NCBI GenBank assembly: GCA_002269645.1
Contig: NIVC01000157.1
Location: forward strand, 62,001-126,000
From: Macrostomum lignano
Lineage: Eukaryota
Reading direction: 5' to 3'
DNA length: 64,000 nucleotides
Shown: positions 8,751-56,349 of the stretch, one piece after another
Layout: each line of letters opens with the position of its first letter
How positions within the stretch are numbered: the first letter of the stretch is position 1
The notes under the pieces: generated by a model
Seen by the model: only the letters and a program-made list of their open reading frames with translations
Database searches by the model: none
What the model was told of the DNA's origin: nothing
Translations under genes and position numbers: made by a program

Positions 8751-8821
8751 CGAGACCCCTGCGAGACTGAAAATTTGTGATCAAACACATCTACTCGCCT
8801 ACTCGCCTAAACTTGATTACC

Positions 8822-9349: not shown

Positions 9350-9355
9350 ATAATT

Positions 9356-14677: not shown

Positions 14678-15045
14678 GTTGACTCATTTGGATGAGATTG
14701 TACATGTAGTAGGGTTTCGAGTTGTAATTTTGGTGGGCGCGCGTGGGCCGTCTGGGGATGACACTGTACATGTAGATTAATGCACATGTACATATAGAAT
14801 TGGGGATAGACAATTTGGGATAGATAGGGATTAATGTTCATATCCATTTTGAGATAGATAGGGATTATTGAACATGGAATTAATGTACATATGTGGGATT
14901 ATTGTACATATACGAATACATATACGCATATCACGCTTAGGATAGCGTTTTCGTATACTACTTACTTCATTTTCAGATAGTAGTATAATTTGCGTTTTTT
15001 GCGTCAGAATTCTAAAAACCCGGCAGCTTCGGCACATTACGTAGT
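14678..15045. repeat. Terminal inverted repeat / end downstream of dUTPase
   Basis: Homologous to the pol-side end; ends ACATTACGTAGT at 15045. Confidence 0.8.
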
Positions 15046-16606
15046 GAGGCACAATGGAGACACGTGCTGATAGGGGTTTTCTTAAATTTTACAATGTCTG
15101 CTGCGGCAGGATCTGTGTTATCAGGGTCATCAATCAAACATTTTTGACAGCCTAAAATTCGAAACGGGGGTCAATCAACCCCACATTTCTTTTGTTGCTA
15201 CGTGTCGGAACGTGCCGAGTTGGGGTTTTTACAACTCGCCGATTTTTGTTGCTTGGGGTGGGCTGATAAAATTGCTGCTGCTGCAGGCAATCAATCAAAA
15301 GTTTTTGACAGTTGTAAAATTCCAAGCGGTCAGAATTTTAGTCACCATGTGCATTTTTATTGCAGATTTGGCTCAATTTCAACCCCCCACCCCAGCCCGA
15401 CACTGTCGAAGGCGATGGTAAGGAGTTGATTTTATGAGTCATAAACCTGCCGCCGCCTCTCGCAATTCTAATTTCAAACCCTCCTATTTTTCAGGCTTCA
15501 TTACGCGTCTTGGAGGGGCGAAAACCCTGCCTAAATTTAAAGCAAAAGGATATGAATACATAGTATCGTTCACGGCTGATATTGTAGATGTTGGCTCAAC
15601 GATTGCAGAGGTTATTTCTGTACTCTGCGCAGACCTACACACCAACGATTTCGTCGCAGCTAAACTAACGGCGGACAACATGATGCTCGCCATCAATGTC
15701 CCACCCGTCCGCCGCAGCCGCTTCACTGCAGAGCTTGTTTTCAAGCACATTAACAAGGTTCTGCAGTCGGACTCCAGTGTCTTGGGCAACAACTTTAAAT
15801 TGTTTTTGCTCAAGGCCTGGGTCCCGCGGGGCGGCTGCGGCAGCCTAGATGCGGCGGAGAAACACATCCAGGCTCGCCATTCAATTGGGGGACGAAATTA
15901 TGTCATCATTGCCAACAGCGACAAGCGTTGTCTCATCCGGGCGCTGGTGGCGGCCAAGGCCTACGCGGACATGGAGGCCACGACAATTAATAGACAGGCT
16001 TAACGGACCATCAAGGCCGACTCCCCACTGCAGAAGAAGCTGACTGGGGAGCTTCAAATTGCTGCCAAATTGTATTCGGTGAGTAAAAGATAATCTTGCG
16101 CATTTTAATTTGCTTTTTTATTAATATACAAATATTTTAGTCTTTATCAACCATCACACAGGCCGGGCCTTTCGGGGTTGACATGCTACCCCAACTGCTG
16201 GCTGTTCTGAACGCCCAGTCACCCGGCTGGGATTTCGGCGTTCGTGTGTACAGCGCGGAGGAGGGCAACACGTGCGTGTATGCCCTGCCCGGCCACACGG
16301 TGCTGAATCTGCACCTAATTGGTGGGCATTTCAATACTGTGTGTAAAGTGCCGCCATTTTTCGGGACCCGCCGCTATTGCGACAACTGCCAGCAGCCGTA
16401 CGACTGCATCTCTGCTGAGCACAAGTGCGCCAACACCTGCCCTCAGTGTAAAGTGCCCGGCTCCAATTGTAAAAGCCTGCAGCGTGACTACAAACGCTGT
16501 GCTGACTGCGGAATGAATTGTTACAATCCGCAGTGCTTCGAGAACCACTGCCAGAAAAACCGGGACGGCAGGTCTCGCTGCAGCTCCATACGCGTCTGCC
16601 CCAAAT
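15046..16606 (+). pseudogene. polB: pPolB copy D (part of intron 1, micro-exon, exon 3, start of exon 4)
   Basis: Micro-exon 15366-15417 (52 nt, +1 frameshift), introns 15418-15494 and 16079-16161, premature TAA at 16001-16003. Truncated at RVCPK and fused tail-to-tail with copy E. Confidence 0.9.
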
Positions 16607-21835: not shown

Positions 21836-22238
21836 GGATACATACTTCTACATGTGCATTATTCCACTTCTACATGTACAGTGTCATACATTAATCCCAA
21901 GACGGCCCACGCGCGCCCTGTATATGAATCACCAAGATTACGTGTACAACTCGAAACCCTACTACACGTACAGTTGTACAATCTCATCTACTACTGCCAA
22001 ATGAGTCAACACCCAAGTTTACAAAGCACGTTATATGCACATTACCATTTATATGTCAATTATTCAAAACCTACATGTAGCTGATTACACTATATACTAC
22101 CTTTAGTAGAGTTACGAGTCAAGATTCTATTGAAAAAGATTGTATTCATATAGTTTTCAAATTTGAAAAGTGTATATTTTTTCATTTTAATAGTTGAAAC
22201 AGAGAGCAAAAACAGCAGGGGCAACAGCAAGTTGAGAC

Positions 22239-22702
22239 TTAATTATAGCCTGTACTACCAAACCCCCTACACCGCGAATTGAGTGGCTGCTACTGGAAGT
22301 AACCTCCCCTTCGCCATTTCCCCTATAGAGATCCTTTACAACTACGGGAGCAATCATTACACGCTCCAAAACTAATTAGGCGATACGGTAGCCCCGAGTT
22401 ATGAACCAGTCCGCACTGCCATGATTAAATATCACCACAGTCAATTCCCCAGTATAGTCAGGGTCAATCACGCCGGCGCCCACTTGTATAGACTTGCGCA
22501 ACGCCAGTCCAGACCGGCCGGCAATCCGAGCGTAGGTCCCATCAGGCGGTTGGATTGAAATTCCGAGAGGCACCTGCGCAACAGACCCGGCCCGGACAAC
22601 AGCATCCTCAGAGGCAAAGAGATCGTAACCAACAGAGCCGATCGTCTGGCGAGCCGGCGGGCAGGCGCCTTCAGTCAGCAGCGACACCTTTAAAGCAGCC
22701 AT
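22239..22702 (-). pseudogene. dut: dUTPase (full length, disabled)
   Basis: MAALKV... with motifs GYDL, GRSGLA, GVIDPDYTGE and RIA*L (CAA>TAA at 22376-22378), plus a 1-nt deletion in motif 5 relative to the 14.2 kb copy. Confidence 0.93.
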
Positions 22703-23060
22703 GATGACGTAGCTGGAATTGGTGAGTTCGCGGTTATAATCAGTCACAGTGTTTACACACACAGAATGTTTTATAGTTTTTTTCATTCATTCTAAATATC
22801 ATTACTTGAAAAATGGTAAAAATCTCAACACAGTATTCAAATTTTACAAAACAATTTCTTTGAAACTAATGAGCGAGGTGCATTTGGATAACGCATGTGT
22901 GCATACACAACATTTAATACTATAGCGAGTTGAGATATATAGTATGGAGTGCATGAAAATTTAGATTGAGTGCAGACACGACACTTGATAAAAACAAGAT
23001 ATGTACAAGGTGCATGAAAATAAAAATGTGTGCAGACACAACATTAAATTGTCAATAATA

Positions 23061-23719
23061 TTAACAAAGCCCCGAGCCGGGGAATAGTCTGTCTAAGTCT
23101 TCAGCGACCTCCCCATGGAGGTCAGCCTCATATTCGGCCCTCTCCCTTTTCGCGGTGTAATAAGCCCGCTCCTCAGAGGGGCTTCCAAAACAATAGTCCG
23201 CTAGCTAGGAAAAAAAGAAAATGGGTGGAAAAGTTTTCCGATATAATGCATTGAAATTTTGAGTCGGCAATTAGTTTTTAGTTGCAAAATGAAAAGTTTT
23301 CGAGTAAAATGCATTCATAGTCAAATCTGCAATTATTTACCATGTCCAAGTCTGGCTCGCGACACCAACGCCGCAAAAATTCTTGGTAGGCGGCCTCTTC
23401 GTCAGCTGCGGCAGCCGCCTTTCCACTAGCAGCAGCGTCAGTACTGTGCAACTGCAGCCCCATCCGAGGGGCTAAATTAATCCCCAATCGGCAGCGGCTC
23501 GTCTTCTTCTTCTTCATTTGCGGTTGTTGTTGCCGCGGATGCTGATTCAGACTGCTGCCTTCAATAGTCGCGGCGGCGGCGGCGGTGGCGACTGCGGCAT
23601 ATTCACAGAGGCTGGCCCCCAGCAGCCCACAGCCATTACCAGGCTGGCAACATTCGTTGCCGCAGTAGCTACCGCCGCACCAACCTAGAAAGTCGTCAAT
23701 GCTGCTGCTGTCGCCACTG

Positions 23720-23751
<32 letters not shown>

Positions 23752-23967
23752 GTTGCCGCTACTACTGTTGCTGCCGTTGTTGTCAGATTTGTTCGACAGA
23801 GTTAAAACTGGTTAGGCAGTAGAGCGAGGCGGGTTCCAGCCTACTCGGCCGCCCCCAACCCCGCACTACATGATTAAAGGGGTTCTGCCGCCGCAAGGTA
23901 GCGCTACCGCCACCGCAACTAACTGTGGCGGCTCTTCTTCTTTTACACTGCTGCTGCTTCTGTTCAT
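23061..23967 (-). pseudogene. Orphan gene Y with terminal intron (23340-23205) and 47-aa exon 2
   Basis: ...EEAAYQEFLRRWCREPDLDM|LADYCFGSPSEERAYYTAKRERAEYEADLHGEVAEDLDRLFPGSGLC*. The GT...polypyrimidine-TAG junction is in phase 0; exon 1 has stops or frameshifts. Confidence 0.65.
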
Positions 23968-24355
23968 TGTGCTCGTGGGTGTGGGAGTTGATCGCAAATT
24001 TTCAATTTGAAAAGATTTTTAGTCGCGCAGGGGTCCCTCTTTTAAAGTGATTTTGAGTGGCCTCCTATTGGCTCCCCCGGCCTCACAGCCCCCGCCAGCC
24101 AGTCAGTCTGCCGGCCGGCCTGCCCACAGCCAGCGAGTTAGTCAGTCTGGCTCAAAAACAGCGAGCTAATAACTATCTGTTTTAATAATAAATTTCAGTC
24201 TCAAAATTTCAGAGACTCAGTTGCTTTCAATTTCAAAACAAATGAAATAAGACCATTTTTATTCCAGATATGTCATTATCAGTGCCAGTTTATTAAAAAG
24301 ATGGTTTCACTTTCATATTATTAGAGTCGATGTAATTGCAGAAACGCAAATTCCC

Positions 24356-25470
24356 AGCAGCGGACTGGGCTGTTCGTTGATTATGTGAACACCTTCTGTT
24401 GTACTCGCGGGCTGCGATCTCGTCTAGCCCGGTCGTTTCGTTTTCCCCGGGTAGCGGGTTCGGTGCGGGACTGCCCCGGGCGCGCGGCGGAGGGATGGAC
24501 AGAAGGCGAACGACTGGCGCTCCTCGAGGCGGATGGCCACTCCGAGGGGAAGAGGGAGAGATGCGACCCGGGGCGCACAGGCACTCCTCGGTCACGGAAG
24601 GCTCGGGGTACTGCCGCGGTCAGCGGAGCGGATAGCCACTCAGTGCCGGCCCGGGAGTCACCGAGGAGATTGTGAAACGAGGTGAATGTGAAGGATTGGC
24701 CGGGGCGTACAGACACTCCGGACCAATCAAGAGATACGAGGTGATGGATTAGCTGGGGCGTACAGACACTCCAAGCCAATCGGAGAGCGCAGGTGAGCAA
24801 GGGGGTGAGTAGGTGAAGCGATGAGGCGGCGAGGATGGAGAGAAGACACGTGCAGAGAGCCCAAAAAAACGCGAACGCAACCCGAATAAACGTAATTTAA
24901 GCTCACCGGGCGGGGTCAAACCGACTCATGCAACGCAGTTTATTTGGCCGTAGTAACTGTTCTGGCAGCTCGGAGACGGCGGGTGGCACGGATTAGCTTG
25001 CTACGAAGTGTTCCGATAGTTTACTGGGCTCGTGCAGTTTTGTACTTTTATGATATTTTTCTTACTCAGTTGCTGGTGTAGCTCTAACCGCAAAAACCAA
25101 GCAGCGTGCCACCGGCCGGCTCCAAGCCAGCTAATAAATAGTATGCGAAAATGGGGGAGTGGGCCAAACCGGCCTGAGCGCAAATACTCACACAACAGAA
25201 CCCCGCGAGCACCCCACCCTAGCCCAGCCAATCAAAACATGCGCTGGGTAAGGCTTTACGAACGAGGGGGGTAGAAAAGCGAGGGTCTGCCGGCCCAGCC
25301 AGCCAATCAGAGCACACGCCGGCTGCCTAAAACCAAAGCCGGCTGAACCAACTCAAACCAGCTAGGCCGGCAGACCGGGCGGTTCGCATGCACCAAAAAA
25401 AACAAGTTGATGAGAAGGTCATTGTGGCGCAGGCCACAACACTTCCTCAAGCTGAAAGCCGAATCGAGCT
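24356..25470 (+). pseudogene. polB: About 70-bp pPolB filler fragment (QRTGLFVDYVNTF|LKLKAES) split by a solo LTR
   Basis: 24356-24396 and 25442-25470 join into contiguous exon-5 sequence. Confidence 0.8.
24397..25441. mobile_element. Solo LTR (1045 bp), Gypsy-like by target duplication length
   Basis: Termini TGTTGT...ACAACA with 4-bp target site duplication CTTC (24393-24396 and 25442-25445). Internal CCAAT-like and AATAAA motifs; no coding signature. Confidence 0.85.
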
Positions 25471-25640
25471 CAAATAATCCCCACAAAAAGCAATGATTAT
25501 ACAACCCACACAAAAGAGTTTTTTATCAATTGTCTTAATCATTATCATTGAGCAAAAGGCTACGAATATGAATACTCCCACAAAAGCAATGATTTTACAG
25601 CCCACACAAAAGAGTTTTTTAGCAATTGTCTTAATCATTT

Positions 25641-26432
25641 TCACCCGACACGCATTGTGGGCAGCTGCTGCAGTTTGGCCTTGTCGCTGCTGTAGATTAG
25701 CTTAATTCGCTTGTTCTGCTCCTTGATCACAGCGGCCCAGGCAGCAAAGGCCGGCTCGTGGGGCCCAATCTGATGGGCCGGGGTCTTGAAAAGCTCTTCA
25801 TCAGTCAGGCCGGCAACCCAGCTCTCGAGCTCAGTCGAGTCCGGGGGATACGAGTGCCACCACTTGTAGCTGCTGCCGCTGCCGCTGCCTCTGCCGCCGT
25901 CAGTCGTAGAAAGCTTCTTCACCTGCGGCTGCAGTTCAATCGGTGGCGGGGTGCCAGCACTGCGGCGGCGGTTGCCATCGCCGTCACCATCATTGCTGCT
26001 GCTGCCGCTGTTAAACCACGATGATGGCTCCGAAGCCGTCTTGGGCGGCGGCGACTGCGAGGCAAACCGCGAGTCAACGTCAGCATCCATCAGAGCAGTC
26101 CACAATTCGGGGGTGAACCTGATTGAGTATTTCCAGCGCTCGCGCTCATTGCAGCCTCCGTTGGAGTCGGCAGGGTTGTTGCGATGTAGCCAAACCTGGT
26201 TATTTTTCACTCCCAGAATCTTGCGGCCCTCACCCAGTTGAAACTTATGACGAGAGCAGTCGAGCATTCCCCGAGACTCAATAATCGGCCGAGCCCTCTT
26301 GAGATGCTGCCACTCGATGCGAGTCAGAAACACGCCGGGGAAGCCGTGCTTGTAGTTGCCGTTCTTGTCAGTGTAGAAACGCCGAATCTCAATCAGTTCT
26401 CGATCAGTATCGAATGTGGGCTTGCGCACCAT
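25641..26432 (-). CDS. PC4/Sub1-like ssDNA-binding protein (263 aa, apparently intact)
   Basis: LIEIRRFYTDKNGNYKHGFPGVFLTRIEWQHLK resembles the PC4 core ([28 protein letters not shown]). A second, weaker repeat is WKYSIRFTPELWTALM. TATA box at 26551-26560. Confidence 0.65.
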   Translation of the reverse strand: MVRKPTFDTDRELIEIRRFYTDKNGNYKHGFPGVFLTRIEWQHLKRARPIIESRGMLDCSRHKFQLGEGRKILGVKNNQVWLHRNNPADSNGGCNERERWKYSIRFTPELWTALMDADVDSRFASQSPPPKTASEPSSWFNSGSSSNDGDGDGNRRRSAGTPPPIELQPQVKKLSTTDGGRGSGSGSSYKWWHSYPPDSTELESWVAGLTDEELFKTPAHQIGPHEPAFAAWAAVIKEQNKRIKLIYSSDKAKLQQLPTMRVG

Positions 26433-26550
26433 AATTGTCAACAAGTGGAATAGACATTTTGACAGAGTTTCACGGAGATAGAGCTGTTGCAAAGAGTGTC
26501 GGAGCGAGCGAGCGCGAGAGAATTCTGAAAAATCTCTCAGCAGCATGGTC

Positions 26551-26833
26551 GTTTATATACCCGCGAAAGCGACTGTACTCTGAGGAGATGAGGCTGCGGT
26601 CTGCATTTTTCGTTCCTACAGCACTACCGGTTGGTTAGATACACTCAGATCCAATTAAAATCCGTATGAGAACGAAAATGATGGGGTATTTTCAGACTTG
26701 ATCTTTTCTATACCAAGTTGCGGTCTGAGTGTACAATTGTACACTAATTTGCAAATGCAGTACAAGGGAAAGAGAAATAATGCACACGCGCTCTCTGCTT
26801 TTGCAGCATCCCCTTCCTGCAGGGGTATTTAAA
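26551..26833. promoter_or_regulatory. Bidirectional promoter: PC4 TATA (-, 26551-26560) and pol TATA-like TATTTAAA (+, 26826-26833)
   Basis: Two outward-facing TATA motifs lie between divergent ATGs at 26432 (-) and 26927 (+). The same layout recurs at about 53037-53300. Confidence 0.6.
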
Positions 26834-26926
26834 GGAAATTGTAGGAGCATCACCAGTCACAGCCGCTTCCGCAGCATCAGCAGCATCAGCCACAATCGCA
26901 GCAGCATCAGCAGCAGCAGCAGAAGC

Positions 26927-27613
26927 ATGGCATCGAAGCGTTCAGCTGCTGAAGCCGCCATTTCAGCCTTGTGGGGGCAGGCCGGCCCATCCAGGCAGCA
27001 GCAGCAGCAGCAGCAGCAGTCACGGGGTATCAGCCTCAGGTCGAGACCAGCCTCTACGCCGATGACAGCGCCCTGCTGGCCCTGGACCGCAAGCTAGACA
27101 ACTGCGCGAGCAAACTCCAACCGGCTCTCGACGCGGTCCAACGTTGGTGCGAGCGCTGGAAAATGCTGCTGAGCCCAGGCAAATGCAGCTACAGCACCTT
27201 CAGCCTCAGCCCAGCGGAAAATAGAGGCAAGGCTCGGCTCAATGTCAGCATCGGCAACAAACAACTGGCCTTTGAGCCCCACCCAGTCTTCCTTGGGGTG
27301 AAACTCGACGATCACCTCGGCTTCGCCGAACACGCCTAAGACATTCGCCGCCGCATGGCCGCCCGCAGACGACCCCTTCAGGCCATTGCTCACCGCCAAC
27401 TGGGCGCAACTCAAGACATCCTTCGAGCGGTCTACACCGCCACCGTGCGCTCAGTGGCCGACTACGGCAGCGGAATCTGGCTGGCGGGAGCAGCCCCGAG
27501 CACCCGACTCATGATTGAACGACAACGAACGGCGCCGGTAATGCGAGCGCTGAAGTAGAAGAAGAAGAAGCAGCAGTCACAGCCTCCGGCCGCAAAGAGG
27601 GGACGACAGCTAG
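26927..27613 (+). pseudogene. polB: pPolB exon 1 (poly-Q plus basic NLS-like motif), interrupted by a LINE fragment
   Basis: MASKRSAAEAAISALWGQAGPSRQQQQQQQQ...QPPAAKRGRQL, then G|GTGAGT at 27614. The phase-1 donor matches the phase-1 micro-exon acceptor. Confidence 0.7.
27038..27530 (+). mobile_element. Internal fragment of a non-LTR retrotransposon reverse transcriptase
   Basis: YADD at 27055-27066, followed by RWCERWKM...PGK...FLGVKLDDHLGF and the downstream thumb/tether-like region. One in-frame stop; no 3' tail. Confidence 0.88.
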
Positions 27614-28210
27614 GTGAGTCTCTGCGCGCGTAAAACTATGCTTTTCATCTTTAGCATTAGCAAAATCTAAAATCAGAAAAATAAGGCTGTATAATTGCGC
27701 CTTTCAGTTTTAGCATTTGTGTGATTTGTAAACTTAACGCTTATTGAAGTATGGGCTTTCTTTAAAACCACTGCTTTTCATCTTTAAAATTCATTTTGGC
27801 TCAAATTTTGGCTTAACATTTGTGTAATTGCTTTTTAGCTTTAGCATTTGTGTGATTTGCAAACTCACGCTTGTTGAAATATGGGTTTTCTTTGAAACCA
27901 CAGCTGCTTTTCATCTTTAGCATTCATTTTGGCTTAAAATTTCTGAAGTCAGGCTGTCCTCCTCCTGCCATAGATGTTGAAGTAAAGGGAGGAAACTGTT
28001 TTTGGATTTCTCAATTCAGGCCTAATGAAATAACAGAGTTTTAGAGAATATCCGCAGCAGCAGTATAGCCGGATAATGTGTGTAGAGGATAGTCATAAAA
28101 TTTCAGGGAGCTATATGACTAATCTTTGAACTAGAGAAGCAAAAACAGCAATCCTGTGGCGCGAACGTGACTCAGCGGGGCGGGCAGGCGGCAGTGATAA
28201 AATCAACCCC

Positions 28211-28911
28211 CTGGGCAACGCCGGAGCTGCGAAGGCGTTACAGTTGGGCTACCGCCTGCAGGCGGTGCACGCGCTGACCTACTGGACAGAGCAGCGGACT
28301 GGCCTGTTCAGAGATTATGTCAGTACATTTCTCAAGCTGAAGGCTGAATCGAGCGGCATGACTGACAAGGACAAGGCAGCCTACATTGCCGATTTTTACG
28401 CAAAGGAGGGCGTCACGCTGGACAAGGTCGAGTCCAACCCAGGACTTCGCTTTGTAGCGAAAATCTTTTTGAATTCGTAAGTATTCATGAATTGTTTTTT
28501 AAACGATTTCTTCTACTATCAGTAGCTTTTCTTTTCACAACACAGGCTCTGGCGTAAATTTTGTCAGCGCGATGACCTCACATCGACCGATATTGTGTCC
28601 AGCTACGAGGACTGGCTCGCCCGGCTGACCGACCCCAACCTCAAAGTCAAGGCCTGCGAACCGATTGGCAGCGAGTTCATGCTGCTGGAGTACCGGCACC
28701 GCTACTTTAATCAGCGGCTGTTCCGCTACTCGAACGTGCCAATCGGTGTTTTTACGACCACGCAGGCCCGGCTGCGCCTGTACGAGGCATTGGAGGGGCT
28801 TGGCGAACGGGCCATTTACTGCGGCACTGACTCGTAAGTATTGCATTGGGAAAATTCTTTTAGAATTGATTACATGTAAATAGTTAGCAATTATCCTTTT
28901 TCTCTCCCCCA
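28211..28911 (+). pseudogene. polB: pPolB copy F (exons 5-6), joined to intron 1 by internal deletion
   Basis: WATPEL...KIFLNS|LWRKF...YCGTDS. Truncated in the motif-C intron. Confidence 0.9.
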
Positions 28912-29699
28912 CCACCCGAGTGGCATCGATCTTATCGGGAGTAGATGTACCATTTTTTACCGATGTTATCGGGTTGAAAACATGGCGGGAATGTCGGCAA
29001 CATGTCATCATCCCGATATAATCGGGGCATAATGCTTTTAAATTGAGCATGTTTTGCGTTTATTTGAATTTCACGTTGCTAAATGTATAGAACTGGCCTA
29101 GCGTATTCATTTGCATAAAATATATATTATGCTTGTGCTTCATGTGTTTGAAACTTTACTCGAGGTCAAGGCTTCCCTCAGTGTGGAGAGTTTTTGTATA
29201 CAGGCTACAGGTTTTTATAACTATGACAAATATTAATTAATGCTTTTACTTGGGTGCTTTTACTAATTCATCATCATTTACTCTAACCAATAAAATATTA
29301 ATATTATTAATGTTACCTAAGAGTGACAAACTGCAAAACTTCTTCAAGTTAGGCCTACCTAAAAATTGTTTGAAACCTTTAGACCAAAATAGGAAGAATT
29401 GATTTTAATTTATTGTCTATATATTTGATTATTTCTGCAAAATTCTTAAATTCTTAAATTCTTCTAGACCTTATAGAAGACTTCTTTCCTTAATTTATAT
29501 TAGGAAAACTTTTGAAATATTAATATGGTCATGGATTAACTTAACTATAGCTAAAAACTTTGAAAAGGAAGACAGAATAGGAGTCTAGACTATAGTCCTA
29601 GAAGGGGACAGATAGGGTATATCTATATTATATTGTCCTTTTATTGTCTATACTACCAATATATTCCTTATCCTTATGCTAGGCTCCTACTCTCTATAT

Positions 29700-42030: not shown

Positions 42031-42049
42031 TGCGCAGTGTCATGATGGC

Positions 42050-45739: not shown

Positions 45740-46430
45740 GTCCAGACGATGGCCTCTGCGTCCCCGAACACATAGTTCCCCTAGGCACTGAAAACAACGG
45801 AACTGATAATTGGGAGGTTGATCAATATTTAGCTTGGGCTATGGCCGATGATAGCGACCCCGAGTCTAAAGTTTTCGACTTCCCGCTGCTGGCTATTGGA
45901 GGGGTTGTGAACGGTGCCCCTGCTGCTGCCTCCGATTTGACTGCTGCCTCTGCCGCCCTCTTTGAGGTCTCTGTTGAGGAGCTGACCACAGCCGGCCCCG
46001 TCTCGAGCAATGCCTCTGCTGACGCCTCTGCATCGGCTGATGTCCTGTCTGCTGCCGCCTCTGCATCGACTACCTCCAACCGGGGCTCTATATCATCTGC
46101 CGCTACGCTCCTCCTACTTGGTGATGAGGACGAGGACGTGCCTGGGGAGTTTGCCATGGCTCGCGAGCGCTTTCCACGCATCCTTGCCTCATTTTTCTGC
46201 GGGGATATCGACTGGCTGAGGTCTCGGCATCCTGGCGGCCTGCTTTCCCAAGACACCTTTATCAGAGCCTTTGATAGGGTTCTCTATACTTTGGTTTCGA
46301 GGGGGGCCGGCCTACGGGAGGTGCTGGAGGCTGAGACTCTGCACCAGGACTGGTTGATGGGGCGCAATTCGAATGCCTCTGACTCAGAGGCGTACGTGGC
46401 CGGTCCTGGAGCGCGCCCGACTGCGTGGGT
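45740..46430 (+). pseudogene. Gene Y' (family 2) exon-1 fragment, fused in frame to the zinc-knuckle ORF
   Basis: PEHIVPLGTEN...ARERFPRILASFF..DIDWLRSRHP...AETLHQDWLMGRNS matches 54030-54980. Confidence 0.8.
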
Positions 46431-46699
46431 CGCAATTCATCATTATATTTTAAAGATGGCCCGAAGAAATGGTCCTTTTCCACTCACACGTCTGATTTCT
46501 TTTCCAGATGGACATTGTTATTAATGAAGGAGGGGGGCCGCATCCGCCCCGCCGCCGCCGCCGCCGCCGCCACCGCCGCCGCCGCCTCGCCGGCTGAGGC
46601 GGCTGCGGAGCGGCCGGCTGCGGCTACTTTGAGCTCAACTCAACTTTGTACTGTGTACTGTGTACTGTACTGTTTGGGCTGGGCTACAAATCTGATTGT

Positions 46700-47100
46700 A
46701 GGGAAAGTTTGTATATATAGATAGATATAGATGAATAAAAATTTTACTGTTTAAGACAATTGAAATTAATTGTCTCAAGACAGACAGACAGACAGACAAA
46801 CTTTCCCTACAATCAGATATGAACCCTCGGGTCGGAATTAATAATTGAAATAATTTAAATAATAATTTAATAATTTAATTTAAAAAATTTAATTTAATTT
46901 AATTTTTTATTGTAATTAATTATTTAATTTAATAATTTAATTTAAATAATTTAATAATTTAAATAATTTAAATAATAAATAAATAATAAATTAATAAATT
47001 AGTAATAATGTAATAATGTAATGTAATAATGTTTAATAATGTAATAATGTAATACTGTATGAATGTAATAATGTATTAATGTAATAATTTAATAATGTAA
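46700..47100. repeat. AT-rich low-complexity tract (AATT/TAATG)
   Basis: Direct inspection. Confidence 0.85.
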
Positions 47101-48110
47101 TAATAACCAGCTTTGTCTGCTAGCTCAATAACACCAAAGGGCAAGGCCAACTCAAGTTCCACCCCCCAAGGAACACCAGTTACACCACAGCAGCAGCAAC
47201 AGCCTATATCTGCATCATTTATGCCCCAATCAAAATGCCCAGCAGATGACCCAAAGGCTAAAGAGTTAACAAGGGATCTTGGTAAGTCTACTACTAGTCT
47301 GACCAGTAATTCTTTTTTCTAAAGACAGTCTAAAAGTACACTTCAAATAGGCTTGTAAAATACCCCCTTTTCCCACCCACCCTCTTCTTATGGCAGAGCT
47401 TATTGCGTTCGACAGGGAGCCATTTAGTCAGGTTGAGCGACTTGGATTCTCGAGGTTCTTGGCGAAGCGTTTCCCACGCTACTCCATTCTATCCGCCGAC
47501 AAAATGGCGAAGGTTGCTGTGCCACAGCTATACGATTCTGTTCGCCAATCAGTCGAGAGTGTGCTAAAAGATAGTACATCTTTCGCCCTTAGCACAGATG
47601 GCTGGACATCAGCTTGTGGTTCATTTGAAGTCATAGGGCTTGTTATGCACTTTATTGCTCCAAGTGGAAAGCTGGAGCAGGTAACGCTCTGCTGCTCCCA
47701 AGTTCCTGGTTCACCAACAGGCGAATGTATTGCAGAGGTTGTGAGAAATGTGAGTAAATTTGGAAAACAAAAAGGAAAAAGTAAAAAAAAACTGATATTG
47801 ATAAATATCAATGATGAATAATTTTGAGCTAGCCACAGAAATATGTTGTTAAAAGATGAGAGTAGCATAAGGAGAGTAGAATAGTGCAAAAGCATCAATG
47901 CTTTTTTCTAAAGCTGGCCCTTTAGTTAAAGAATTTAGTATATTTGGATTACGTGTACATTTGGAGTTTATTGTAAAAAACTCCAAAAACTCCAAACTTT
48001 TATAGGTGTTATCTGACTGGCATCTAATGGATGCAATTGTTTCCGTTATCACTGATGATGGACCAAACGTGAAGAAAGCAATCCGACTGGGCCTTGCTAG
48101 GCACTCGTGC
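47100..48110 (+). pseudogene. hAT (Ac/ZBED-like) transposase fragment with introns
   Basis: LIAFDREPFSQVE..GF..F...FPRY, FALSTDGWTS and ITDDGPNVKKA...HSC. GT donors at about 47282 and 47749; truncated before the pol copy G. Confidence 0.85.
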
Positions 48111-48159
48111 GTCCTATATCGACTGCCGATTTGCGTTCATACAGTTTTGCCTCAGAAGG

Positions 48160-50858
48160 CAATGATTGTGGGCTAAATTGCTACAATGCTCAGTGCCTTG
48201 AAAATCACAAGCGCAAGAATAAGGCTGGTAGATCGCGCTGTGATTCGGTTCACGTTTGCGGGACGTGCGGCTATCTGGAAGAGCAAAGAGTAGGCCAGGC
48301 CCCCGAGCATCAGTGCGGTCACGCCAAGTGTCCAGTCTGCAAGCAGTACGCAGAAACTGCCACCCACGAGTGCTTTGTCACCCCGCCCAAAGCCAAAGAA
48401 TCTAGCGCCCCGTACGTTTACTACGATTTTGAGACGTACGTAGACTCTGACAAGCAGCACCGGGTACACTTGGTTACGGCAGCTACCTCGTGCGAGTCGT
48501 GTCCCAAACTCTTCCCCAGGCCCTGCTGTAGCGCGTGCGGGGGGTTGCACAGCTCAGCCAATTGCATTGCGGGACGCGATTTGGCGCGCGATTTTACTGG
48601 CTGTGTCTCCCACAATGACTGCGCTTGCGGGATGCGAGAGTTTGTTTCGGTTGGGCCGCACTCTATCGATGCCTTTTACTGCTGGTTGACTAGTGTGTTC
48701 AAGCAGGGGGCTATTGCTATTGCGCACAATGGCTCCGCGTATGACGCATTCCTCCTGCTCGGAGCCCTACTCAACGGACTGGCCAAGAAGAAGCCCCAAG
48801 TGATCTTCCAGAATAGCCGTTTAATGTACATGAAGAGCGACAAGATCACAACATTCAAGGACAGCCTCAACTTCATTCCTATTGGTCTGGCGCAATTCCC
48901 AAAGGCGCTTGGTTTAGGCACCCAGCTGACCAAGGGAGATTTCCCGCATGTGTTTAATCAACCGCAAATTTAGGACTACGTAGGGCCTTACTGTTCGATT
49001 GAAATGTACGGCGGGAAGAAAAACAAGCAGCATGACTCCATCGCAGACTGGCTGGCCAAGCAGGAGGGTCAAGTGTTTAATTTCAACAAGGAATACTTGG
49101 ACTACTGCCTGCAAGACACTCTAATTTTGCGGGAAGGGTGTCTAAAATACGCACGCCTGATTAAGGACATTTGCGGACTGGACGCATTTGTCCAATCTAA
49201 CACCATTGCAGGCTTGGCCATGGCTGTTTTCACTACCAAGTTTATGGAGCCCAACACTCTTGGGGTGATTTCCCGCCGGTCAGATGTGCAGTCGTACAAG
49301 GCGCGGTGCTGGCTTGCACCTTTGAATGCAACCGAGTTTGGTGGCCGGTTGCGGACAGCCGACTCTGGCGGCGAGGCTTTCGCCATGGGTCGAAAGGTGG
49401 ACGGCTTCGACCCAGAGACTAGGACAGTGCTCCAATTCCACGGCTGCTTCTATAATGGCTGTCCCAAGTGCTTCCCCAACGGCGACGTGCTGCACCCGCT
49501 CAAAAACCAGCCAATGCGGGCAATTTATGAAGAGACTGAGCGCTTCACTCGACTGCTCTCCACGGCCTAAAATGTACGTGTCCTGTGGGAGCACGACTAC
49601 CAGGACGAGGGAGCGCCAGTCCAGCCGCCTATTCGCCTGGAGGAGGCCCTATTTGGCGGCCGCACCGAGGCTTTTGTCCCGCACGCCGAGGCCACCGAGA
49701 CTGTGGAGCTGTGCTATCGGGATGTGGTAAGTTTCTCTTGCACAGTTTACTATACTAAATCTATATTCTACTACAACTACCACCACTTTCCCTTTAGGTG
49801 TCGCTCTACCCGACTGTCAACAAGTTTGACAAGTACCCTGTCGGGCACCCGGTTCACCACCCCGAGCCTCATCTACTGGATGAGGCTGGCCCGGTACTTT
49901 GGCATCGCCGAGGTCTCGATTCTGCCGCCTACCAATCTCCACATCCCGCTACTGCCCGCCAAGATTAGCAAGAAGCTGGTTTTCGGCCTCTGCCGCGTCT
50001 GCATGGAGACCCAGTGCAGCAGCGAGTGTACACACACTGACGCTGAGAGAATGCTCCGCGGTACATGGTCGACCCCAGAGCTCCACAAGGCCCTGCAGTT
50101 GGGTTACATGCCGCAGTCAGTTCATGCCCTGGCCTATTGGGCCGAGACTCGGAGCGGGCTGTTTGCAGACTATGTAAACACCTTTTTGAAGCTCAAGGCC
50201 GAGTCTAGCGGTTCGCCGGGGATGACTGAGAACGCCAAGGCCGCCTACATGGCCAGCTTTTTCGAGCGCGAAGGTGTCCGGCTGGAAAAGGTGGAAGAAA
50301 ATCCTGGCCTGCGCTTTGTTGCCAAGATTTTTCTAAACTCGTAAGTTGGGGTTTCTACTTGCCGTGGGGGACGTGTTTTTCTACTTACAGTAGCCAGATA
50401 TACCTACATATTCCCTAAAACTGCAGGCTCTGGGGCAAATTCTGCCAGCGCGACGACTTGACCTCCACGGAGATTGTGGACAGCTACGAGGCGTGGCTGC
50501 AGCGTCTGACGGACCCGTCCATCAAGGTCAAGTCGTGCGAGCCTGTCGGGGAGAGCTTCATGATGCTCGAATTCAAGCCCCGAATTGGTGGTGCTGGCGA
50601 GCGGGCCTTTAAGTACGCCAATGTACTAATTGGCGTTTTCACCACCTCCCACGCCCGGCTGCGACCATACGAGGCTTTGGAGGGCCTAGGGACCCGAGTC
50701 ATTTACGCTGATACTGATTCGTAAGTAATTTTTCCCCCTGTCTCTGTCTGTTTCCCACCTTAACACTATATCCTCCTGCTCCACAGGGTCGTGTATCGGT
50801 GCTCTCCCGGCCCGTACGAGCCTCCCGGCGGTTCGAGTTTGGGGCAGTGGACTGATGA
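48160..50858 (+). pseudogene. polB: Diverged pPolB (family 2, copy G), exons 4-7, inverted relative to its own 5' exons
   Basis: YDFETY, HNGSAYD, YCLQD. Introns 49727-49797, 50341-50426 and 50721-50786 sit at the same codon positions as in family 1 (RDV|VSLYP, LNS|LWGK, YADTDS|VVY). Nonsense codons at 48971 and 49568, and a frameshift at about 49885. Confidence 0.92.
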
Positions 50859-51220
50859 GGCCACAAATTGCAGGTAGGCGCAGGCCACAACTAGAGCTCG
50901 CAGCAGGCACCTCTTATCCGTGTTGGTAATGTGGACATAGTGCTTGGAGAAGGCATGGCGCTCCTCCAGAAGCTTGTTCTCGAGGGCACAGCCAACCTGA
51001 GGCACCCAGGCCTTTAGCAGACGGATAGAAAAGTTGCCCGTCAATACAGTGGCATCCGACTGCACAATCTTGTCAATGTGCTTAAACAACAACTCTGCTG
51101 TCATGTGGGCTGCACGCACCGGGGGAGTATGGGCCGCTTTGAGCATGTTGTCGCTCTCGAATTTCGCGGCCATAAAGTCTTCCCCCGCCAAATCCTGCTT
51201 AAAGACATCGAGCATGTCGG

Positions 51221-52096
51221 TATAAGGATTCAATTTCATATGCATGTAGGCCTTAGGGACTATTTAGGGACTATCGTAGGAACTATTAGGAATAGGACTT
51301 AGGATTTAGGAAATTAAGGAATTGCATTGTTATCAGAGCGTGGTGGAGTGTAGCAGTTGTGGACAGCTGCACTCTTACAAAAAGCCACAAGTGCTTGATG
51401 ACGGCATTGCAAAGGGCGAGTGCAGGCCACCCTAAAAGTCTGCTTCCACTTTAGAGGGGTTGTATGCCTTTATGTGGGGCGGGGTTCAATTACATTTTTT
51501 AACAGAGGCATTTCAGGAATCGCACGAGAAAGGGGAACCGTGAGAATCGGCCGGAATTGCGCGGTGGCTGGAAGACGTGGGAAATGATAACGCAGACAGT
51601 TTCACAGGGACTTCATCGGGGAAATTTACTATAAATAAGCGAGGGGTTAAATGCTAAAAACTTTACCTTTTCTCACTCTCTTTTCACTCTCTTTTAAACG
51701 CCTTGTATTAACTTTTGGATTGCTTAATAGTTTGCAAATCACGACGACCGCTTCTGCAGAAACCTGTGACCGGAGGGTAAGACTGAGCACTGACATGACT
51801 ATAGATTTATGAATATTAGCGTATCGGTCTCAGACCAGGTAGATAGGCGTAATTTATATATATATATAATAGATTAATAGGAGTATTTGAGTAGCTTAGT
51901 TATACCGTAGTGTCTCAGACTTATTCTCCCTGCTTGTAGCTCGCTTATTTGCTTATTAATACAAACGTTGAAAATGCAGTAGTAAATATAATTATATGGT
52001 TGATCGGTAAATAACATCCAAGCATATTCTACCTCGTTTGAGTCACTATTAATCATATGTAAGGTTCTTAGTTTGCGGCCAACTAGGAAGCTTATA
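51221..52096. mobile_element. Unclassified 876-bp non-coding insertion
   Basis: 5-bp target duplication GTCGG (51216-51220 and 52097-52101) and 6-bp terminal inverted repeat TATAAG...CTTATA. Removing it restores EVFAD|MLDVFK in pol exon 3. Confidence 0.8.
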
Positions 52097-52399
52097 GTCG
52101 GCAAACACCTCCCGCAAATCTTCGGTGTTAGTAATGCGCACCACATACTCGACGCCCTTTGCCCTAAACTTGGGCAGGTCACGTTGATTATCTAGCCGGG
52201 CCGTAAAGCCTGCAGGGAATGAATGGGAGTGTGAGTCAGCCCGGGTCTGTCTGGGGAATGGGGGCTAGATAACTCACCCGGTCCGGTAACTGATTCAGGT
52301 TGGGCAGGCGGAACAAACGCGTCTGAAAAAACAAGAAAATAAAAAATCAGAAGAATCTGTCAATTCGCGGCACCCCAGGATCAGACTCCAACCGGCTCA

Positions 52400-52900
52400 T
52401 TGTTTGTGCTCCTGCATAACCCCTTGCGCTCAGGCCCTCCTGCCGACACGCGTCTGCAATTTTTTTAACCCCAGCCCGCAGCTGTTATCCAGCCTGCTCT
52501 TTGTTTGCGCTCCCACATAACCCTTGCACGCAAGCCCTTCTGCCGACACGCGTCTGCAATTTTTTTAACCCCAGCCCGCAGCCGTTATCCGACCTGCTCT
52601 TTGTTTGCGCACCCTCCCTACTCAAACTCGTAAGCCCCCTGTCGCAGCACTCTGAATTCCCGCATGCGCCTGAAGCTGTCAGAGCGCCCACCATTTTTTA
52701 TCGGTCTGGCTCATTGTTTGCGCTCACGCATAACCACTCGCGCGCAAGCTCTCTCGCTGAAACGCTCTGCAATTTTTTTAACCCCAGCCCGCAGCTGTTA
52801 TCCTGCCTGGCTCTTTGTTTGCGCGCCCTCCCTACTCAAACTCGTAAGCCCCCTGTCGCAGCACTCTGAATTCCTGCATGCTCCTGCCCCTTGCCAATTC
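52400..52900. repeat. Degenerate tandem repeats in family 2 pol intron 1
   Basis: TCTGCAATTTTTTTAACCCCAGCCCGCAGC.GTTATCC...CTCTTTGTTTGCGC occurs three times. Confidence 0.85.
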
Positions 52901-53041
52901 ATAGAAGCTCGCTGCTGCAGCAACTCAAAACCCGTCTAGACTGATAAACAACCGTCGGAAATTAATTAAAACTTACCATAAAGACGTTGCCTCTTGTCAG
53001 CCAGGAAAGCTGTCGATGCTGCGCTGCGTTTAGTCATTTTG

Positions 53042-53046
<5 letters not shown>

Positions 53047-53096
<50 letters not shown>
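53047..53096. repeat. (AG)25 microsatellite in the family 2 divergent promoter region
   Basis: Direct inspection. Confidence 0.97.
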
Positions 53097-53099
<3 letters not shown>

Positions 53100-53298
53100 G
53101 ATTATCTCTCTACCCCTGTTCTGGGGGTCTAAATATATACTAGAAACCTGCTAAGCTCGTCTATTATTGGTCAAATCACCAAAAAACCAACCAGAATCAC
53201 CCAAAATCACCCCTAAAATCACACCCTCCCCACCCTCCATCTGGGGTATATAAAGCGCTGCACGGCTGTCAGAGAGCTCTCTGCTGCTGCTGCTAATC

Positions 53299-53847
53299 AT
53301 GTCTTCTATCGCTCTATACTAAAACTTTGTGGTGCGGAAGCCCACATTTGAAACGGAGCATGACTTAATTGAAATCCGTCGTCTCTACACCAACGAAGCC
53401 GGAGTGTGGAAGGACGGCTTCCCAGCAATCTATTTAAGCGAGGCCGAGTGGAAGAAGCTCGAAGCTGCGCGCCCTGACCTGGAGGTGGCAGCACGTCTTC
53501 ACGTGGACAAGCGGGTCGTGCTGGGCAATTTCAAGGCGGTCGAGGCTTCACAGGGGAGGATTCGTTTGCGGCGCAATTGGCTCAATCGGGATCCAAAGTT
53601 TAATTGGCGCTACACGATCGAATTCACGCCTGAACTGTGGCACCGGATGTTTGCCGCCCGTTTGGGCAAGCTCTTCAAGTCGGCACCCGAGGATCCGCTG
53701 CCGGCCAAGCGAACCAAGACAGAGACCCCTCCGGTAGCCAGGACTGAGGAGGAGGAAAATCTCGAGGACGTTCTCCAGGTTGTGGGTCTCAAACCCTACC
53801 AATCCCCGCCCTGGGAAAATCTGTTTGACGAGAGTCAGCGCTGGTAG
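53299..53847 (+). pseudogene. Family 2 PC4-like gene
   Basis: VRKPTFETEHDLIEIRRLYTNEAGVWKDGFPAIYLSEAEWKKLE...WRYTIEFTPELW. TATA GGGTATATAAA at about 53244-53254. The ATG at 53299 is in frame but followed by TAA seven codons later. Confidence 0.7.
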
Positions 53848-53960
53848 TTTCCTATTGGCTCACACTACCCCGCGGGGCTCCTTATATAACTAATCTATCC
53901 TGTCTCCAGAGAGCCAAACCTAATTTTAGCTCTGATACTATAGTCTCTGTCGATTCCAAC

Positions 53961-55216
53961 ATGTCCCGCCGCCGAGCTCTATCCACCCTCTGGGATAACA
54001 ACCGCCCATCTGAAGAATTAGCCGCCCTCGACGGTGATATACCCGAACACATAATCCCTATAGGCATAGAAAACGGCGAACCTGAATATCCTGAAAATTG
54101 GGGTGCTGATATAGCCTTATCTTGGGCTTTGTGGGCTATTACCTATGATAGCGACCCGGAGTCTGAGATTTTCGACATCCCGTGGGGTAATACCTATGAT
54201 AGCGACCCAGAGTCTGAGATTTTCGACCTCCCGCCGCTGACTATCGGAGGGGTGTGAACGCCGCCTCTGTCGCTGCCGCCTCTGCCTCTGCCGCCTCTGT
54301 CGCTGCCGCCTCTGCCTCTGCCGCTGCCGCCCCTGGTGCTGCCGACTCTGGTGCCTCTGCTGCGACCGCCGCTACCTCCCCTGGTGCTGCCACCTCTGCC
54401 GACTCTGGTGCCTCTGCTGCCGCTGCCGCCCCTGGTGCTGTCGACTCTGGTGCCTCTGCTGCGACCGCGGCTACCGCCCCTGGTGCTGCCTCCTATGCCG
54501 ACTCTGGTGCCTCTGGTGCCTCTGCTGCCGCCGCTACCGCCCCTGGTGCTGCCGCCGCTGCCGCCCCTGGTGCTGCCTCCTCTGCCAACTCTGGTGCCTC
54601 TGCCGCTGCCAACTCTGCCTCCTCCACCTCCAGCCGGGCCTCGATACCATCAGCCTCTACGATCCTTCTCTTTGGCGATGAGGACTTGGATATGTCCGAG
54701 GAGATCGCCATGGTCCGCGAGCGCTTTCCACGCATTGTGGCCTCATTTTTCCGCAGTGATATTGAGTGGCTGAGGTCTCGTCACCCCGACGGCTTGCCTC
54801 CCCAAGACAGCTTTGTCGAGGCCTTTAATCGGGTTCTCGATACTTTGGTGTCGAGGGGGGCTGATCTACAGGTGTTGGAGGCGGAGACGCTACACCAGGA
54901 TTGGCTAATGGGGCGAAATTCGCATGCGTTCGACTCTGAGGCATACCTGGCCGGTCCAGGAGCGCGCCCTACTGCGTGGGACGCACCTTTAGTAAGATAT
55001 TACACTGCATACACAATTCATCTAATCATATACAATGCATATATTCTATCTACATTGAATGTTTTAATTTTCACATTGCAGTCGGCCGACTACTGATTCG
55101 AGACCGTTGAGGAGGAGGCGGCATATGAGACAGCACTGAGGGAGCGGATGGAGGTTGAGGGTTTGTGGTTTTTTCTCCCTGTAAGTGGTTTAGGGGAACC
55201 CCGCAGTATACACTGA
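53961..55216 (+). pseudogene. Gene Y' (family 2): Ala/Ser-rich linker, helical domain and terminal exon
   Basis: Frameshift at about 54252 (in frame in the 45.9 kb copy), intron 54992-55081, and exon 2 SADY*FETVEEEAAYETALRERMEVE homologous to gene Y exon 2. Confidence 0.7.
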
Positions 55217-56101
55217 GTAGATAGGAATGGGGTTGACTGCGGTTAAAAGACTAATTCAGATGGCTCACCCCTAGGGAGAAAATTGTCTCCCTTACACAGT
55301 CTCCCCTGACTGAGATTCGCCTGTCTGCGCGGCACTTGGGAGCCGCTAAAATCCTATTTGGAAGCCCCCATTTGGGGAGGAAAAATAGCTCTCCTAGGTG
55401 AGGGTCCCCTTGTCTGGATGAAAATAGCTCACTGTACATTGGGATCCCCTCGAAACATTACTCAGCCCGCCTTGGTCTCCGCTGTCTGGCGCTAGATGCA
55501 GTGTCGGTCGCTTTGCACTCAGCTGGGGAGGGACTGGCTCTCTGTTTCTCCGCCCTCACTGTACTCGCCCCTGGGGAGGAATGCCTTCATGCGTGTCTCG
55601 AATATCCCTTACTAGGTGGGCCGGATATTTTACCATTGTTTGCACCTACATTATGTCAATATATGCTTAATTTTGCGTACATATGTTGCATATATCACAA
55701 TTTGTACCTTCCGTGTGTATATTTTAGCCCATGCACCTCCATTAATTTGAATCTACAGTGTATTTTGCCTATATACGGTTGCATTATACTTGCATCTACT
55801 GTGTGTAAGTGTCTATTTCAACCTATGTTTAGTTTTCGTGCAGTATACTTGAATCTGCCTACTACACTAACAAAGCGATATGTACCTGCTATTTTGCCAG
55901 TTTTACCGTCTGCCAATATAACGATAATATTATTGTGTGTATTTTGCTATACCTAAGTTTGTACACCTATATGCATTATGCACCAATATGTACATTTTTA
56001 ATATGCACCTGCATTATACCTACCGTGTATTTTTATGTAAATATACATAATTAAATCCACTATAGTGCATAATTTTGTGTTTTTATCGCTAACTACACGT
56101 A

Positions 56102-56223
56102 TATTGGGAGAGTGTACACCTGTATTGGACGAGTGTACCTACATATCAGGAGAGTGTACACATGTATTGGGCGAGTGTACACGTGTATTGGGCGAGTGTA
56201 CACCTGTATTGGGCGAGTATACC
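56102..56223. repeat. 21-bp tandem repeat (TATTGGGCGAGTGTACACCTG), about 6 copies
   Basis: Units start at 56102, 56123, 56144, 56165, 56186 and 56207. Confidence 0.92.
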
Positions 56224-56349
56224 TTCGGTTTGGGGTGCCTGTGGCAGGGAGGGTGCCTGCGGTGTACATATAGGGGCGCCCGCGGCAGGGAGGGTAGCAC
56301 TTGGTTATCAGATTGTTAATGTCAAGTCAACCAATGTCCAGTGATAAGC

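What the first reader, a model, noticed from the sequence alone, without database searches (positions are those of the whole stretch)
45740..56300. A second, diverged family with the same gene order and intron positions
Seen: pol (5' exons on -), divergent promoter, PC4-like gene and gene Y' are in the same order as in family 1. Proteins align readily while introns and intergenic DNA do not. The pol body (48160-50858) is inverted relative to its 5' exons, and no dUTPase follows Y'. Inference: the module is an old, stable lineage rather than a one-off rearrangement, and two families accumulated at one locus.
Basis: partly seen in the sequence, partly recalled or inferred. Interest (0 to 1): 0.72.

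Follow-up and report, generated by a model that had tools for sequence, protein, structure and literature searches.

The report
Intron-bearing, integrase-less Polinton-derived mobile elements
The stretch is a broken copy of a roughly 9-kb mobile element of a flatworm that keeps a virus-type DNA polymerase gene with six spliced introns but has no integrase or capsid genes, so it probably copies itself and borrows another element's enzyme to insert into chromosomes.

Summary
Intact relatives lie elsewhere in the genome (UniRef labels the proteins Macrostomum lignano). They are 8.8-10 kb long, with terminal inverted repeats, 5'-ACTAC…GTAGT-3' ends and 6-bp target duplications (29 of 30 copies). 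They carry a Polinton group-1 protein-primed polymerase, usually a PC4-fold gene and sometimes gene Y. None of 14 polymerase-bearing complete copies showed integrase, capsid or ATPase genes. Six polymerase introns sit at the same position and phase in both families, three inside catalytic motifs A, B and C; all six are skipped at GT-AG in RNA-like contigs of family 2. The families are 66% identical in protein, dS about 2, dN/dS 0.10-0.14. Non-coding palindromic derivatives of similar size share the ends. Best reading: an old satellite lineage that self-replicates and is integrated in trans by a Polinton integrase. The helper is unidentified: the four integrase-bearing Polinton families seen have AGTAG ends and the other polymerase type. 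'Old lineage' holds; 'same gene order' holds only for subtypes; both families are dispersed, not locus-specific.

The parts
45761..46429 (+). Separate, diverged fragment of gene Y'
   Evidence: 79% to window 54571-54985; 85.5% to intact copy L099
46430..48158 (.). AT-rich repeats and hAT-like transposase remains; not part of the element
   Evidence: ORF 47351-47818; hAT label from my recall of the motifs, no Pfam hit; no match to intact copies
48159..50860 (+). Inverted body of the protein-primed family-B polymerase (exonuclease to just past motif C), with in-frame stops
   Evidence: PF03175; 89% DNA identity to intact family-2 copies
49727..49797 (+). Pol intron 4, phase 0, inside motif A (YRDV|VSLYP)
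   Evidence: homologous joint in X1, X4, X7
50341..50426 (+). Pol intron 5, phase 2, inside motif B (NS|LWGKF)
   Evidence: homologous joint in X1, X4, X7
50721..50786 (+). Pol intron 6, phase 2, at the end of motif C (DTDS)
   Evidence: bridged by X7 contig 28 (table 8)
50859..52209 (-). Pol exon 3 (terminal-protein region), truncated at the inversion and split by an insertion
51221..52096 (.). 876-bp insertion with short inverted ends (small DNA transposon-like); not an intron
   Evidence: absent from C471 homolog and intact copies
52210..52277 (-). Pol intron 2 (phase 1)
   Evidence: homologous joint in X1, X4, X7
52278..52322 (-). Pol exon 2 (45 nt; 51 nt in family 1)
52323..52976 (-). Pol intron 1 (phase 1), with tandem repeats
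   Evidence: homologous joint in X1, X4
52977..53037 (-). Pol exon 1 (start codon, basic motif)
53038..53298 (.). Divergent intergenic gap with TATA-like motifs on both strands (putative bidirectional promoter)
   Evidence: function inferred
53299..53847 (+). PC4-fold gene (putative ssDNA-binding protein); this copy has an early in-frame stop
   Evidence: model of a relative, pLDDT 77, matches human PC4 and Pur-alpha; PF02229 in family 1
53961..55160 (+). Accessory gene Y' (unknown function), intron 54992-55081; expanded and partly deleted here
   Evidence: no usable Atlas hit
55161..56294 (.). Remains of the terminal inverted repeat; the terminus is replaced by a 2.3-kb insertion (56295-58621), while C471 keeps it
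1..28912 (.). Cluster of nested, inverted and deleted family-1 pieces; right termini end at 2414, 14209 and 15045; PC4 25644-26432(-), Y, dUTPase 22240-22704(-)

Best explanation
The window holds a dead copy of family 2 of a lineage of about 9-kb Polinton-derived elements that kept only the replication module. SHOWN: TIR-bounded units at many unrelated sites with exact 6-bp target duplications; a TP-vOTU-exonuclease-polymerase gene with catalytic residues kept, under purifying selection and (family 2) spliced; no integrase, capsid or ATPase gene found and little or no room for one. INFERRED: the host transcribes and splices pol in the nucleus; the polymerase primes on its terminal protein at the ACTAC ends and copies excised linear DNA by strand displacement, with the PC4-fold protein coating the displaced strand; template switching yields the palindromic non-coding derivatives; a Polinton-type retroviral-like integrase supplied in trans, most plausibly by the co-resident capsid-encoding Polintons, inserts the product. 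The lineage is thus a self-replicating satellite, autonomous for copying and dependent for integration.
For: 6-bp duplications in 29 of 30 copies with both ends and in 5 further copies, the same length as in the resident Polintons. No integrase, capsid or ATPase hit in 14 complete pol-bearing copies (12; 2 more). Copies without Y' are 8.8 kb and are filled by TIRs, PC4 and pol. vOTU Cys/His, Exo I-III and Pol A-C motifs present. dN/dS 0.10 within and 0.14 between families. Six GT-AG joints in RNA-like contigs, none listed for run X15. Sister copies C24, C811, C1165 have different target duplications and the smallest within-family dS is 0, so movement is recent. The PC4 gene is shared with resident Polintons and had no hit outside this species. 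14 of 14 palindromic derivatives tested are 84-100% self-inverted; dUTPase lies at both ends of C2132, as a fold-back of one arm predicts.
Against: Ends do not match the candidate helpers: ACTAC here, AGTAG in the integrase-bearing families A-C and, read by eye from the window relic, D. Their polymerase is of the other type. No integrase-linked group-1 polymerase was found, but only 150 of 420 candidates were scored, and 111 of 2429 for integrase. Extrachromosomal replication was not observed. Ends are not always homogenised: 20 of 30 copies have identical first 32 nt at both ends, and three sisters keep the same left/right difference. The runs are only guessed to be RNA, and family-1 splicing was not tested. 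Integrase absence was tested against resident Polinton proteins, so a very divergent multi-exon enzyme in the 2.2-kb family-1 filler is excluded only by its many frame-breaking indels.
Confidence: 0.65

Rival explanations
1. A cognate helper with ACTAC ends and a group-1 polymerase exists (exogenous virus, unassembled copy, or recently lost), and these elements are its reduced segment or defective genomes rather than parasites of the AGTAG Polintons.
For: End mismatch with the resident integrase families; two families with their own ends, ACTACTA and ACTACGTA; genome searches score only the best candidates.
Against: No longer ACTAC-ended element with morphogenesis genes was seen: the one oversized copy read (C126, 14.4 kb) is a palindrome with an unrelated insertion; the other 7 end pairs over 12 kb were not read across. 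A group-1 query found only these families and one relic. Two scans of viral contigs found nothing. Six conserved introns imply long residence in the nucleus.
Confidence: 0.2
2. Integration needs no Polinton integrase: linear replicons are captured by host repair at staggered breaks, or by another DDE transposase or an LTR-element integrase.
For: No cognate integrase identified; the genome is rich in other mobile elements.
Against: Ends are base-precise and the duplication is always 6 bp with varied sequence (29 of 30). Repair capture would give variable junctions (general knowledge).
Confidence: 0.1
3. They are passive deletion derivatives of an extinct Polinton, or a host-domesticated gene cluster; the polymerase no longer drives copying.
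For: Many copies are broken; non-coding derivatives spread without any polymerase; introns are typical of host genes.
Against: dN/dS about 0.1 among recent copies at unrelated sites; intron lengths vary freely while exon frames are kept; two families have kept the gene since dS about 2.
Confidence: 0.05

Closest known systems
Polintons/Mavericks (eupolintoviruses) with group-1 pPolB
   Same: TP-vOTU-EXO-PALM polymerase (architecture per bioRxiv 2024.03.18.585575, passages; motifs); best outside hits 28-41% identical, named ones from Nematostella, Nymphon and Ischnura; TIRs of 0.2-1.4 kb; 6-bp TSD.
   Different: 8.8-10 kb instead of 13-25 kb (bioRxiv 2023.08.22.554363, passages); no integrase, capsids or ATPase found; six spliced introns, whereas intact vertebrate Mavericks are intronless; ends ACTAC rather than (AG)3 or (AGT)2 (PMC8097293, passages).
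Capsid-less Polintons
   Same: Loss of the morphogenesis genes is documented in nine elements (PMC4028283, passages).
   Different: The passage reports loss of capsid, protease and ATPase, not integrase; Polintons are defined by polymerase plus integrase (PMC5499653, abstract start in listing).
Cytoplasmic linear plasmids of fungi (pGKL-type virus-like elements)
   Same: Derived from Polintons by loss of the morphogenetic module, keeping pPolB and TIRs (passages; PMC13348850 listing).
   Different: Those replicate in the cytoplasm; these are nuclear, use the host spliceosome and are integrated with precise TSDs in an animal.
Introner-invaded Polinton-like viruses of dinoflagellates
   Same: Introns inside integrated Polinton-like elements (PMC12166617, passages).
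   Different: Those introns come from intron-generating transposons in elements that keep viral machinery; here the introns are old, positionally fixed across two families, and the element lacks that machinery.
Snap-back defective genomes and satellites of linear DNA viruses (recalled, no call)
   Same: Palindromic, non-coding genomes that keep the origins and depend on a helper.
   Different: Here they are germline-integrated with TSDs and form dispersed families.

Membership tests
Polinton/Maverick | Protein-primed family-B polymerase with TP and vOTU domains | tested here: met
   PF03175; full-length hits and conserved motifs. TP and vOTU assigned by sequence and position, not by a fold search.
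Polinton/Maverick | Retroviral-like integrase gene in the element | tested here: not met
   No hit with two resident integrase queries in 14 complete pol-bearing copies; no room in 8.8-kb copies
Polinton/Maverick | Major and minor capsid, packaging ATPase, protease genes | tested here: not met
   No hit for capsids or ATPase; protease was not used as a query and is excluded only by lack of space
Polinton/Maverick | Terminal inverted repeats | tested here: met
   0.2-1.4 kb, up to 99.9% identical within a copy
Polinton/Maverick | 6-bp target-site duplication | tested here: met
   29 of 30
Polinton/Maverick | 5'-AG termini, (AG)3 or (AGT)2 | tested here: not met
   5'-ACTACTA and 5'-ACTACGTA
Polinton/Maverick | Intronless core genes in intact elements | tested here: not met
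   Six spliced pol introns
Linear plasmid (invertron) | pPolB plus TIRs without morphogenesis genes | tested here: met
Linear plasmid (invertron) | Maintained as extrachromosomal DNA with 5' terminal protein | not testable with these tools
   Only assembled contigs were available
PC4/Pur/Whirly ssDNA-binding fold | PC4-type sheet-helix repeat | tested here: met
   Human PC4 Z 6.6, rmsd 1.7, 66 aligned; Pur-alpha Z 9.3, rmsd 4.0, 117 aligned; Foldseek best E 0.007, none under 0.001; PF02229 at 25.2 bits against cut-off 25 in family 1
PC4/Pur/Whirly ssDNA-binding fold | Binds single-stranded DNA | not testable with these tools
   Inferred from fold only

The most novel reading that the evidence does not exclude
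An animal carries a three-tier Polinton system: capsid- and integrase-encoding Polintons with one polymerase type; an old, spliced satellite lineage with the other polymerase type and its own origins that borrows their integrase and possibly their capsid; and palindromic non-coding genomes that parasitise both. The shared 8-10 kb size of pol-plus-PC4, pol-plus-filler and palindromic forms would then reflect a packaging window, making these the first satellite of an animal Polinton virus.
Probability: 0.3. Interest if true: 0.88.

Novelty: new variant of a known kind. Interest (0 to 1): 0.72.

Why it matters
Polinton self-synthesis and integration have, to my knowledge, not been shown experimentally in an animal. 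Here the replication module is naturally separated from the integrase, is transcribed and spliced, and has moved recently in a laboratory flatworm. That makes protein-primed replication, trans-integration and packaging separately testable. It also gives a nuclear, animal counterpart of the route from Polintons to linear plasmids, and a case of long-lived spliceosomal introns inside the catalytic motifs of a virus-type polymerase. Surveys that require polymerase and integrase together (passages) would miss such elements, so they may be more widespread.

Tried and rejected
(1) Bipartite partner: Polinton family C lacks almost all of its polymerase in the 4 copies read, so I tested it as the complementary segment; its ends are AGTAG and one copy keeps a remnant of the other polymerase type, so the pairing is not supported. 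(2) PLA2-like ORF at 42170-42481 as part of the element or its helper: it belongs to a fourth Polinton family with integrase and the other polymerase. (3) Group-1 relic at C234 as helper: single degraded copy, no integrase or capsid hit in 30 kb. (4) Hidden integrase in the family-1 filler: frame-breaking indels throughout 5 copies. (5) Y' as the integrase: absent from 5 of 11 complete family-2 copies that still have TSDs; no usable Atlas hit, which shows nothing about novelty. (6) Viral-contig scans with two polymerases found no relative. (7) No run is on record as RNA; small-RNA mapping could not be done. (8) Local clustering was not formally tested; only examples noted. (9) Literature: no paper on these elements (open-access full text only); one search gave nothing usable. 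Four look-ups, for Kapitonov and Jurka 2006 (twice), Krupovic and Koonin 2015 and Koonin 2024, were not held, and Repbase could not be checked, so prior description is not excluded. (10) Earlier scan findings: none. (11) The family-1 copy just upstream of the window and 14 further family-1 stretches were not read; their content is known from coordinates only.
Full report
OBSERVATION. A family-B protein-primed polymerase (PF03175) lies on + at 48159-50860, its 5' part on - at 50859-53037, then a PC4-like gene (53299-53847) and gene Y' on +. No dUTPase match occurs there. Against intact copies, the window copy has an inversion with losses at both breakpoints, an 876-bp insertion at 51221-52096, in-frame stops and no termini. 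Most of the supposed promoter is pol intron 1, exon 2 and intron 2; the true divergent gap is about 260 bp. The same inversion occurs on C471 and C513 at 98-99% identity, so it is one event at one duplicated locus. The window copy is dS 0.33-0.50, dN 0.01-0.025 from 7 intact family-2 copies.

WHAT IT IS. UniRef labels the closest proteins Macrostomum lignano. A pol segment gives 128 matches in the genome, in two identity groups (a lower bound). Reading the flanks gave discrete elements. Family 2 runs TIR - [Y'] - PC4 - divergent gap - pol - TIR, 8.8-10 kb, ends 5'-ACTACTA. Family 1 has ends 5'-ACTACGTA and is about 9.5 kb. Terminal motifs match 174 and 137 times (reversed controls 0 and 1; only the first 100 of each were listed). 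Of 31 copies fetched in one stretch, one was cut short by my coordinates and dropped; 29 of the other 30 have identical 6-bp flanks of varied sequence. Five more family-2 copies also do. Paired ends are 8-10.6 kb apart in 28 of 38 family-2 and 16 of 35 family-1 pairs.

GENE ORDER. By coordinates, 49 of 64 family-2 pol loci have PC4 divergently upstream; 5 differ (3 are this locus) and 10 had no PC4 hit within 6 kb. Y' is present in 6 of 11 complete family-2 copies. In family 1, 5 of 5 dispersed pol-bearing copies read across that arm carry a 2.2-kb filler with many frame-breaking indels instead of PC4, Y and dUTPase. The constant core is TIRs plus pol.

WHAT IS MISSING. Queries from resident Polinton integrases, capsids and ATPase found nothing in 14 complete pol-bearing copies; the 8.8-kb copies have no space for them. 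The genome holds four integrase-bearing Polinton families. Their ends are AGTAG (A-C by script; D read by eye from the window relic), with 6-bp duplications in A-C, and their polymerase has no significant similarity to this one. A group-1 query found only the two families and one relic (150 of 420 candidates scored).

THE POLYMERASE. The best outside hits are 28-41% identical; of 10 looked up, 3 carry organism names: Nematostella, Nymphon, Ischnura. The vOTU Cys/His, exonuclease and polymerase motifs are kept, matching the TP-vOTU-EXO-PALM layout of Polintons (bioRxiv 2024.03.18.585575, passages). Across four exons, family 1 vs 2 is 66% identical, dS 1.84-2.35, dN/dS 0.14 (21 pairs); within families dN/dS is 0.10 (21 and 3 pairs), with dS down to 0 (three exon segments with frameshifts were skipped).

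INTRONS. Six GT-AG introns have the same position and phase in both families; three cut motifs A, B and C. Their lengths vary between copies while exon frames are kept. Five, and the acceptor of the sixth, were located from sequence (the coordinate script ran alongside the read call). Contigs of three runs from three studies, guessed to be RNA, laid on a family-2 copy skip intron 1 (2 of 3 runs), introns 2-5 (3 of 3) and intron 6 (one contig of X7). None of these joints is listed for the fourth run, of unknown kind, which covers the introns (its tables were cut). Family-1 splicing was not tested. Intact vertebrate Mavericks are intronless with AG-type ends (PMC8097293, passages).

PC4 AND Y. 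A model of a family-2 PC4 protein (pLDDT 77) matches human PC4 (Z 6.6, rmsd 1.7, 66 aligned), Pur-alpha (Z 9.3, rmsd 4.0, 117 aligned) and the phage T5 PC4 homologue (Z 5.9); Foldseek gave E 0.007 at best. It looks like a tandem PC4 repeat; ssDNA binding is inferred. Homologues occur in resident Polintons A-C, and sequence hits were only from this species. Y and Y' share a short last exon and its intron; their function is unknown.

DERIVATIVES. Of 15 family-2 end pairs absent from the pol list and 3 such family-1 pairs, none has pol or PC4. Fourteen tested are 84-100% palindromic and 7.2-9.6 kb; the rest are short, or carry unrelated insertions. C2132 has dUTPase at both ends, as a fold-back of one arm would give.

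MECHANISM. Shown: mobility with precise ends, a conserved and spliced polymerase, and absence of detectable integrase. Inferred: terminal-protein-primed strand-displacement copying with a PC4-fold single-strand binder, fold-back errors giving palindromes, and integration in trans by a Polinton-type integrase (0.65). The main weakness is the end mismatch. An undetected ACTAC-ended helper (0.2), a non-Polinton integration route (0.1) and passive decay or domestication (0.05) are the rivals. The similar size of forms with very different content may reflect packaging in helper capsids (resident helpers 10.6-12.9 kb; adenovirus-like lower packaging limits are recalled, not cited) or only inheritance from the parent.

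COMPARISON AND NOVELTY. It works like a Polinton replication module or a linear plasmid, but fails Polinton membership on integrase, morphogenesis genes, ends and introns. Capsid-less Polintons (PMC4028283, passages), introner-invaded Polinton-like viruses (PMC12166617, passages) and cytoplasmic plasmids (PMC13348850, listing) each share one trait. Two reviews read as passages (PMC5718144; PMC6431247) describe Polintons with polymerase and integrase together. I found no description of these elements; the founding papers were not held, Repbase was not available and no supplements were read, so prior notice is possible.

VERDICT. A real feature. The window itself is a dead relic, but it leads to a recently mobile, old, intron-bearing, integrase-less Polinton derivative with two families and palindromic dependants. 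New variant of a known kind; interest 0.72.

Noticed in passing
L041-L052, L101, L102, L105-L106: Non-coding palindromic elements of 7.2-9.6 kb with family-2 or family-1 ends and their own 6-bp duplications; 84-100% self-inverted.
   Followed up: partly
End motifs listed: Bases 9-30 of the termini are hypervariable in mosaic blocks: 25 distinct 32-nt ends among 30 copies, suggesting frequent recombination between ends.
   Followed up: partly
L056-L059, L063-L067: Polinton family C (10.6-12.9 kb) has integrase, capsids, ATPase, protease-like, TBP-like (labels recalled) and PC4-like genes but almost no polymerase, yet sits at 4 sites with different duplications.
   Followed up: partly
L078:2393 to L079:4512: An integrase-bearing Polinton is inserted inside a family-2 palindromic element.
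   Followed up: partly
window 40060-42480 and 31160-32530: Remains of Polinton family D with a PLA2-like gene; at least 150 copies of that gene genome-wide. A family-2 copy sits about 210 bp from one (L003).
   Followed up: partly
G000 C382, C462, C1176, C1753: Family-1 ends lie within 0.4-16 kb of family-2 ends or PC4 fragments; possible nesting preference, untested.
   Followed up: no
G000 C471 and C513: The same inverted locus occurs on two other contigs at 98-99% identity; C471 lacks two insertions seen in the window.
   Followed up: partly
window 27020-27550: Reverse-transcriptase fragment interrupting family-1 pol exon 1.
   Followed up: no
L009-L010, L033-L034: Long near-perfect inverted repeats outside two elements; at C1485 a pol-bearing copy appears nested in a palindromic one.
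   Followed up: no
G000 C1090, C986, C2787: PC4 hits downstream of pol, on both sides in C1090: the inverted repeat seems to have grown to include PC4.
   Followed up: no
window 56295-58621 and 59540-61350: Degraded hAT-like and IS1595/Merlin-like transposase remains (labels from recall).
   Followed up: no
L030:6180-9999: Helitron Rep-helicase genes next to family-1 PC4 fragments on C1753.
   Followed up: no
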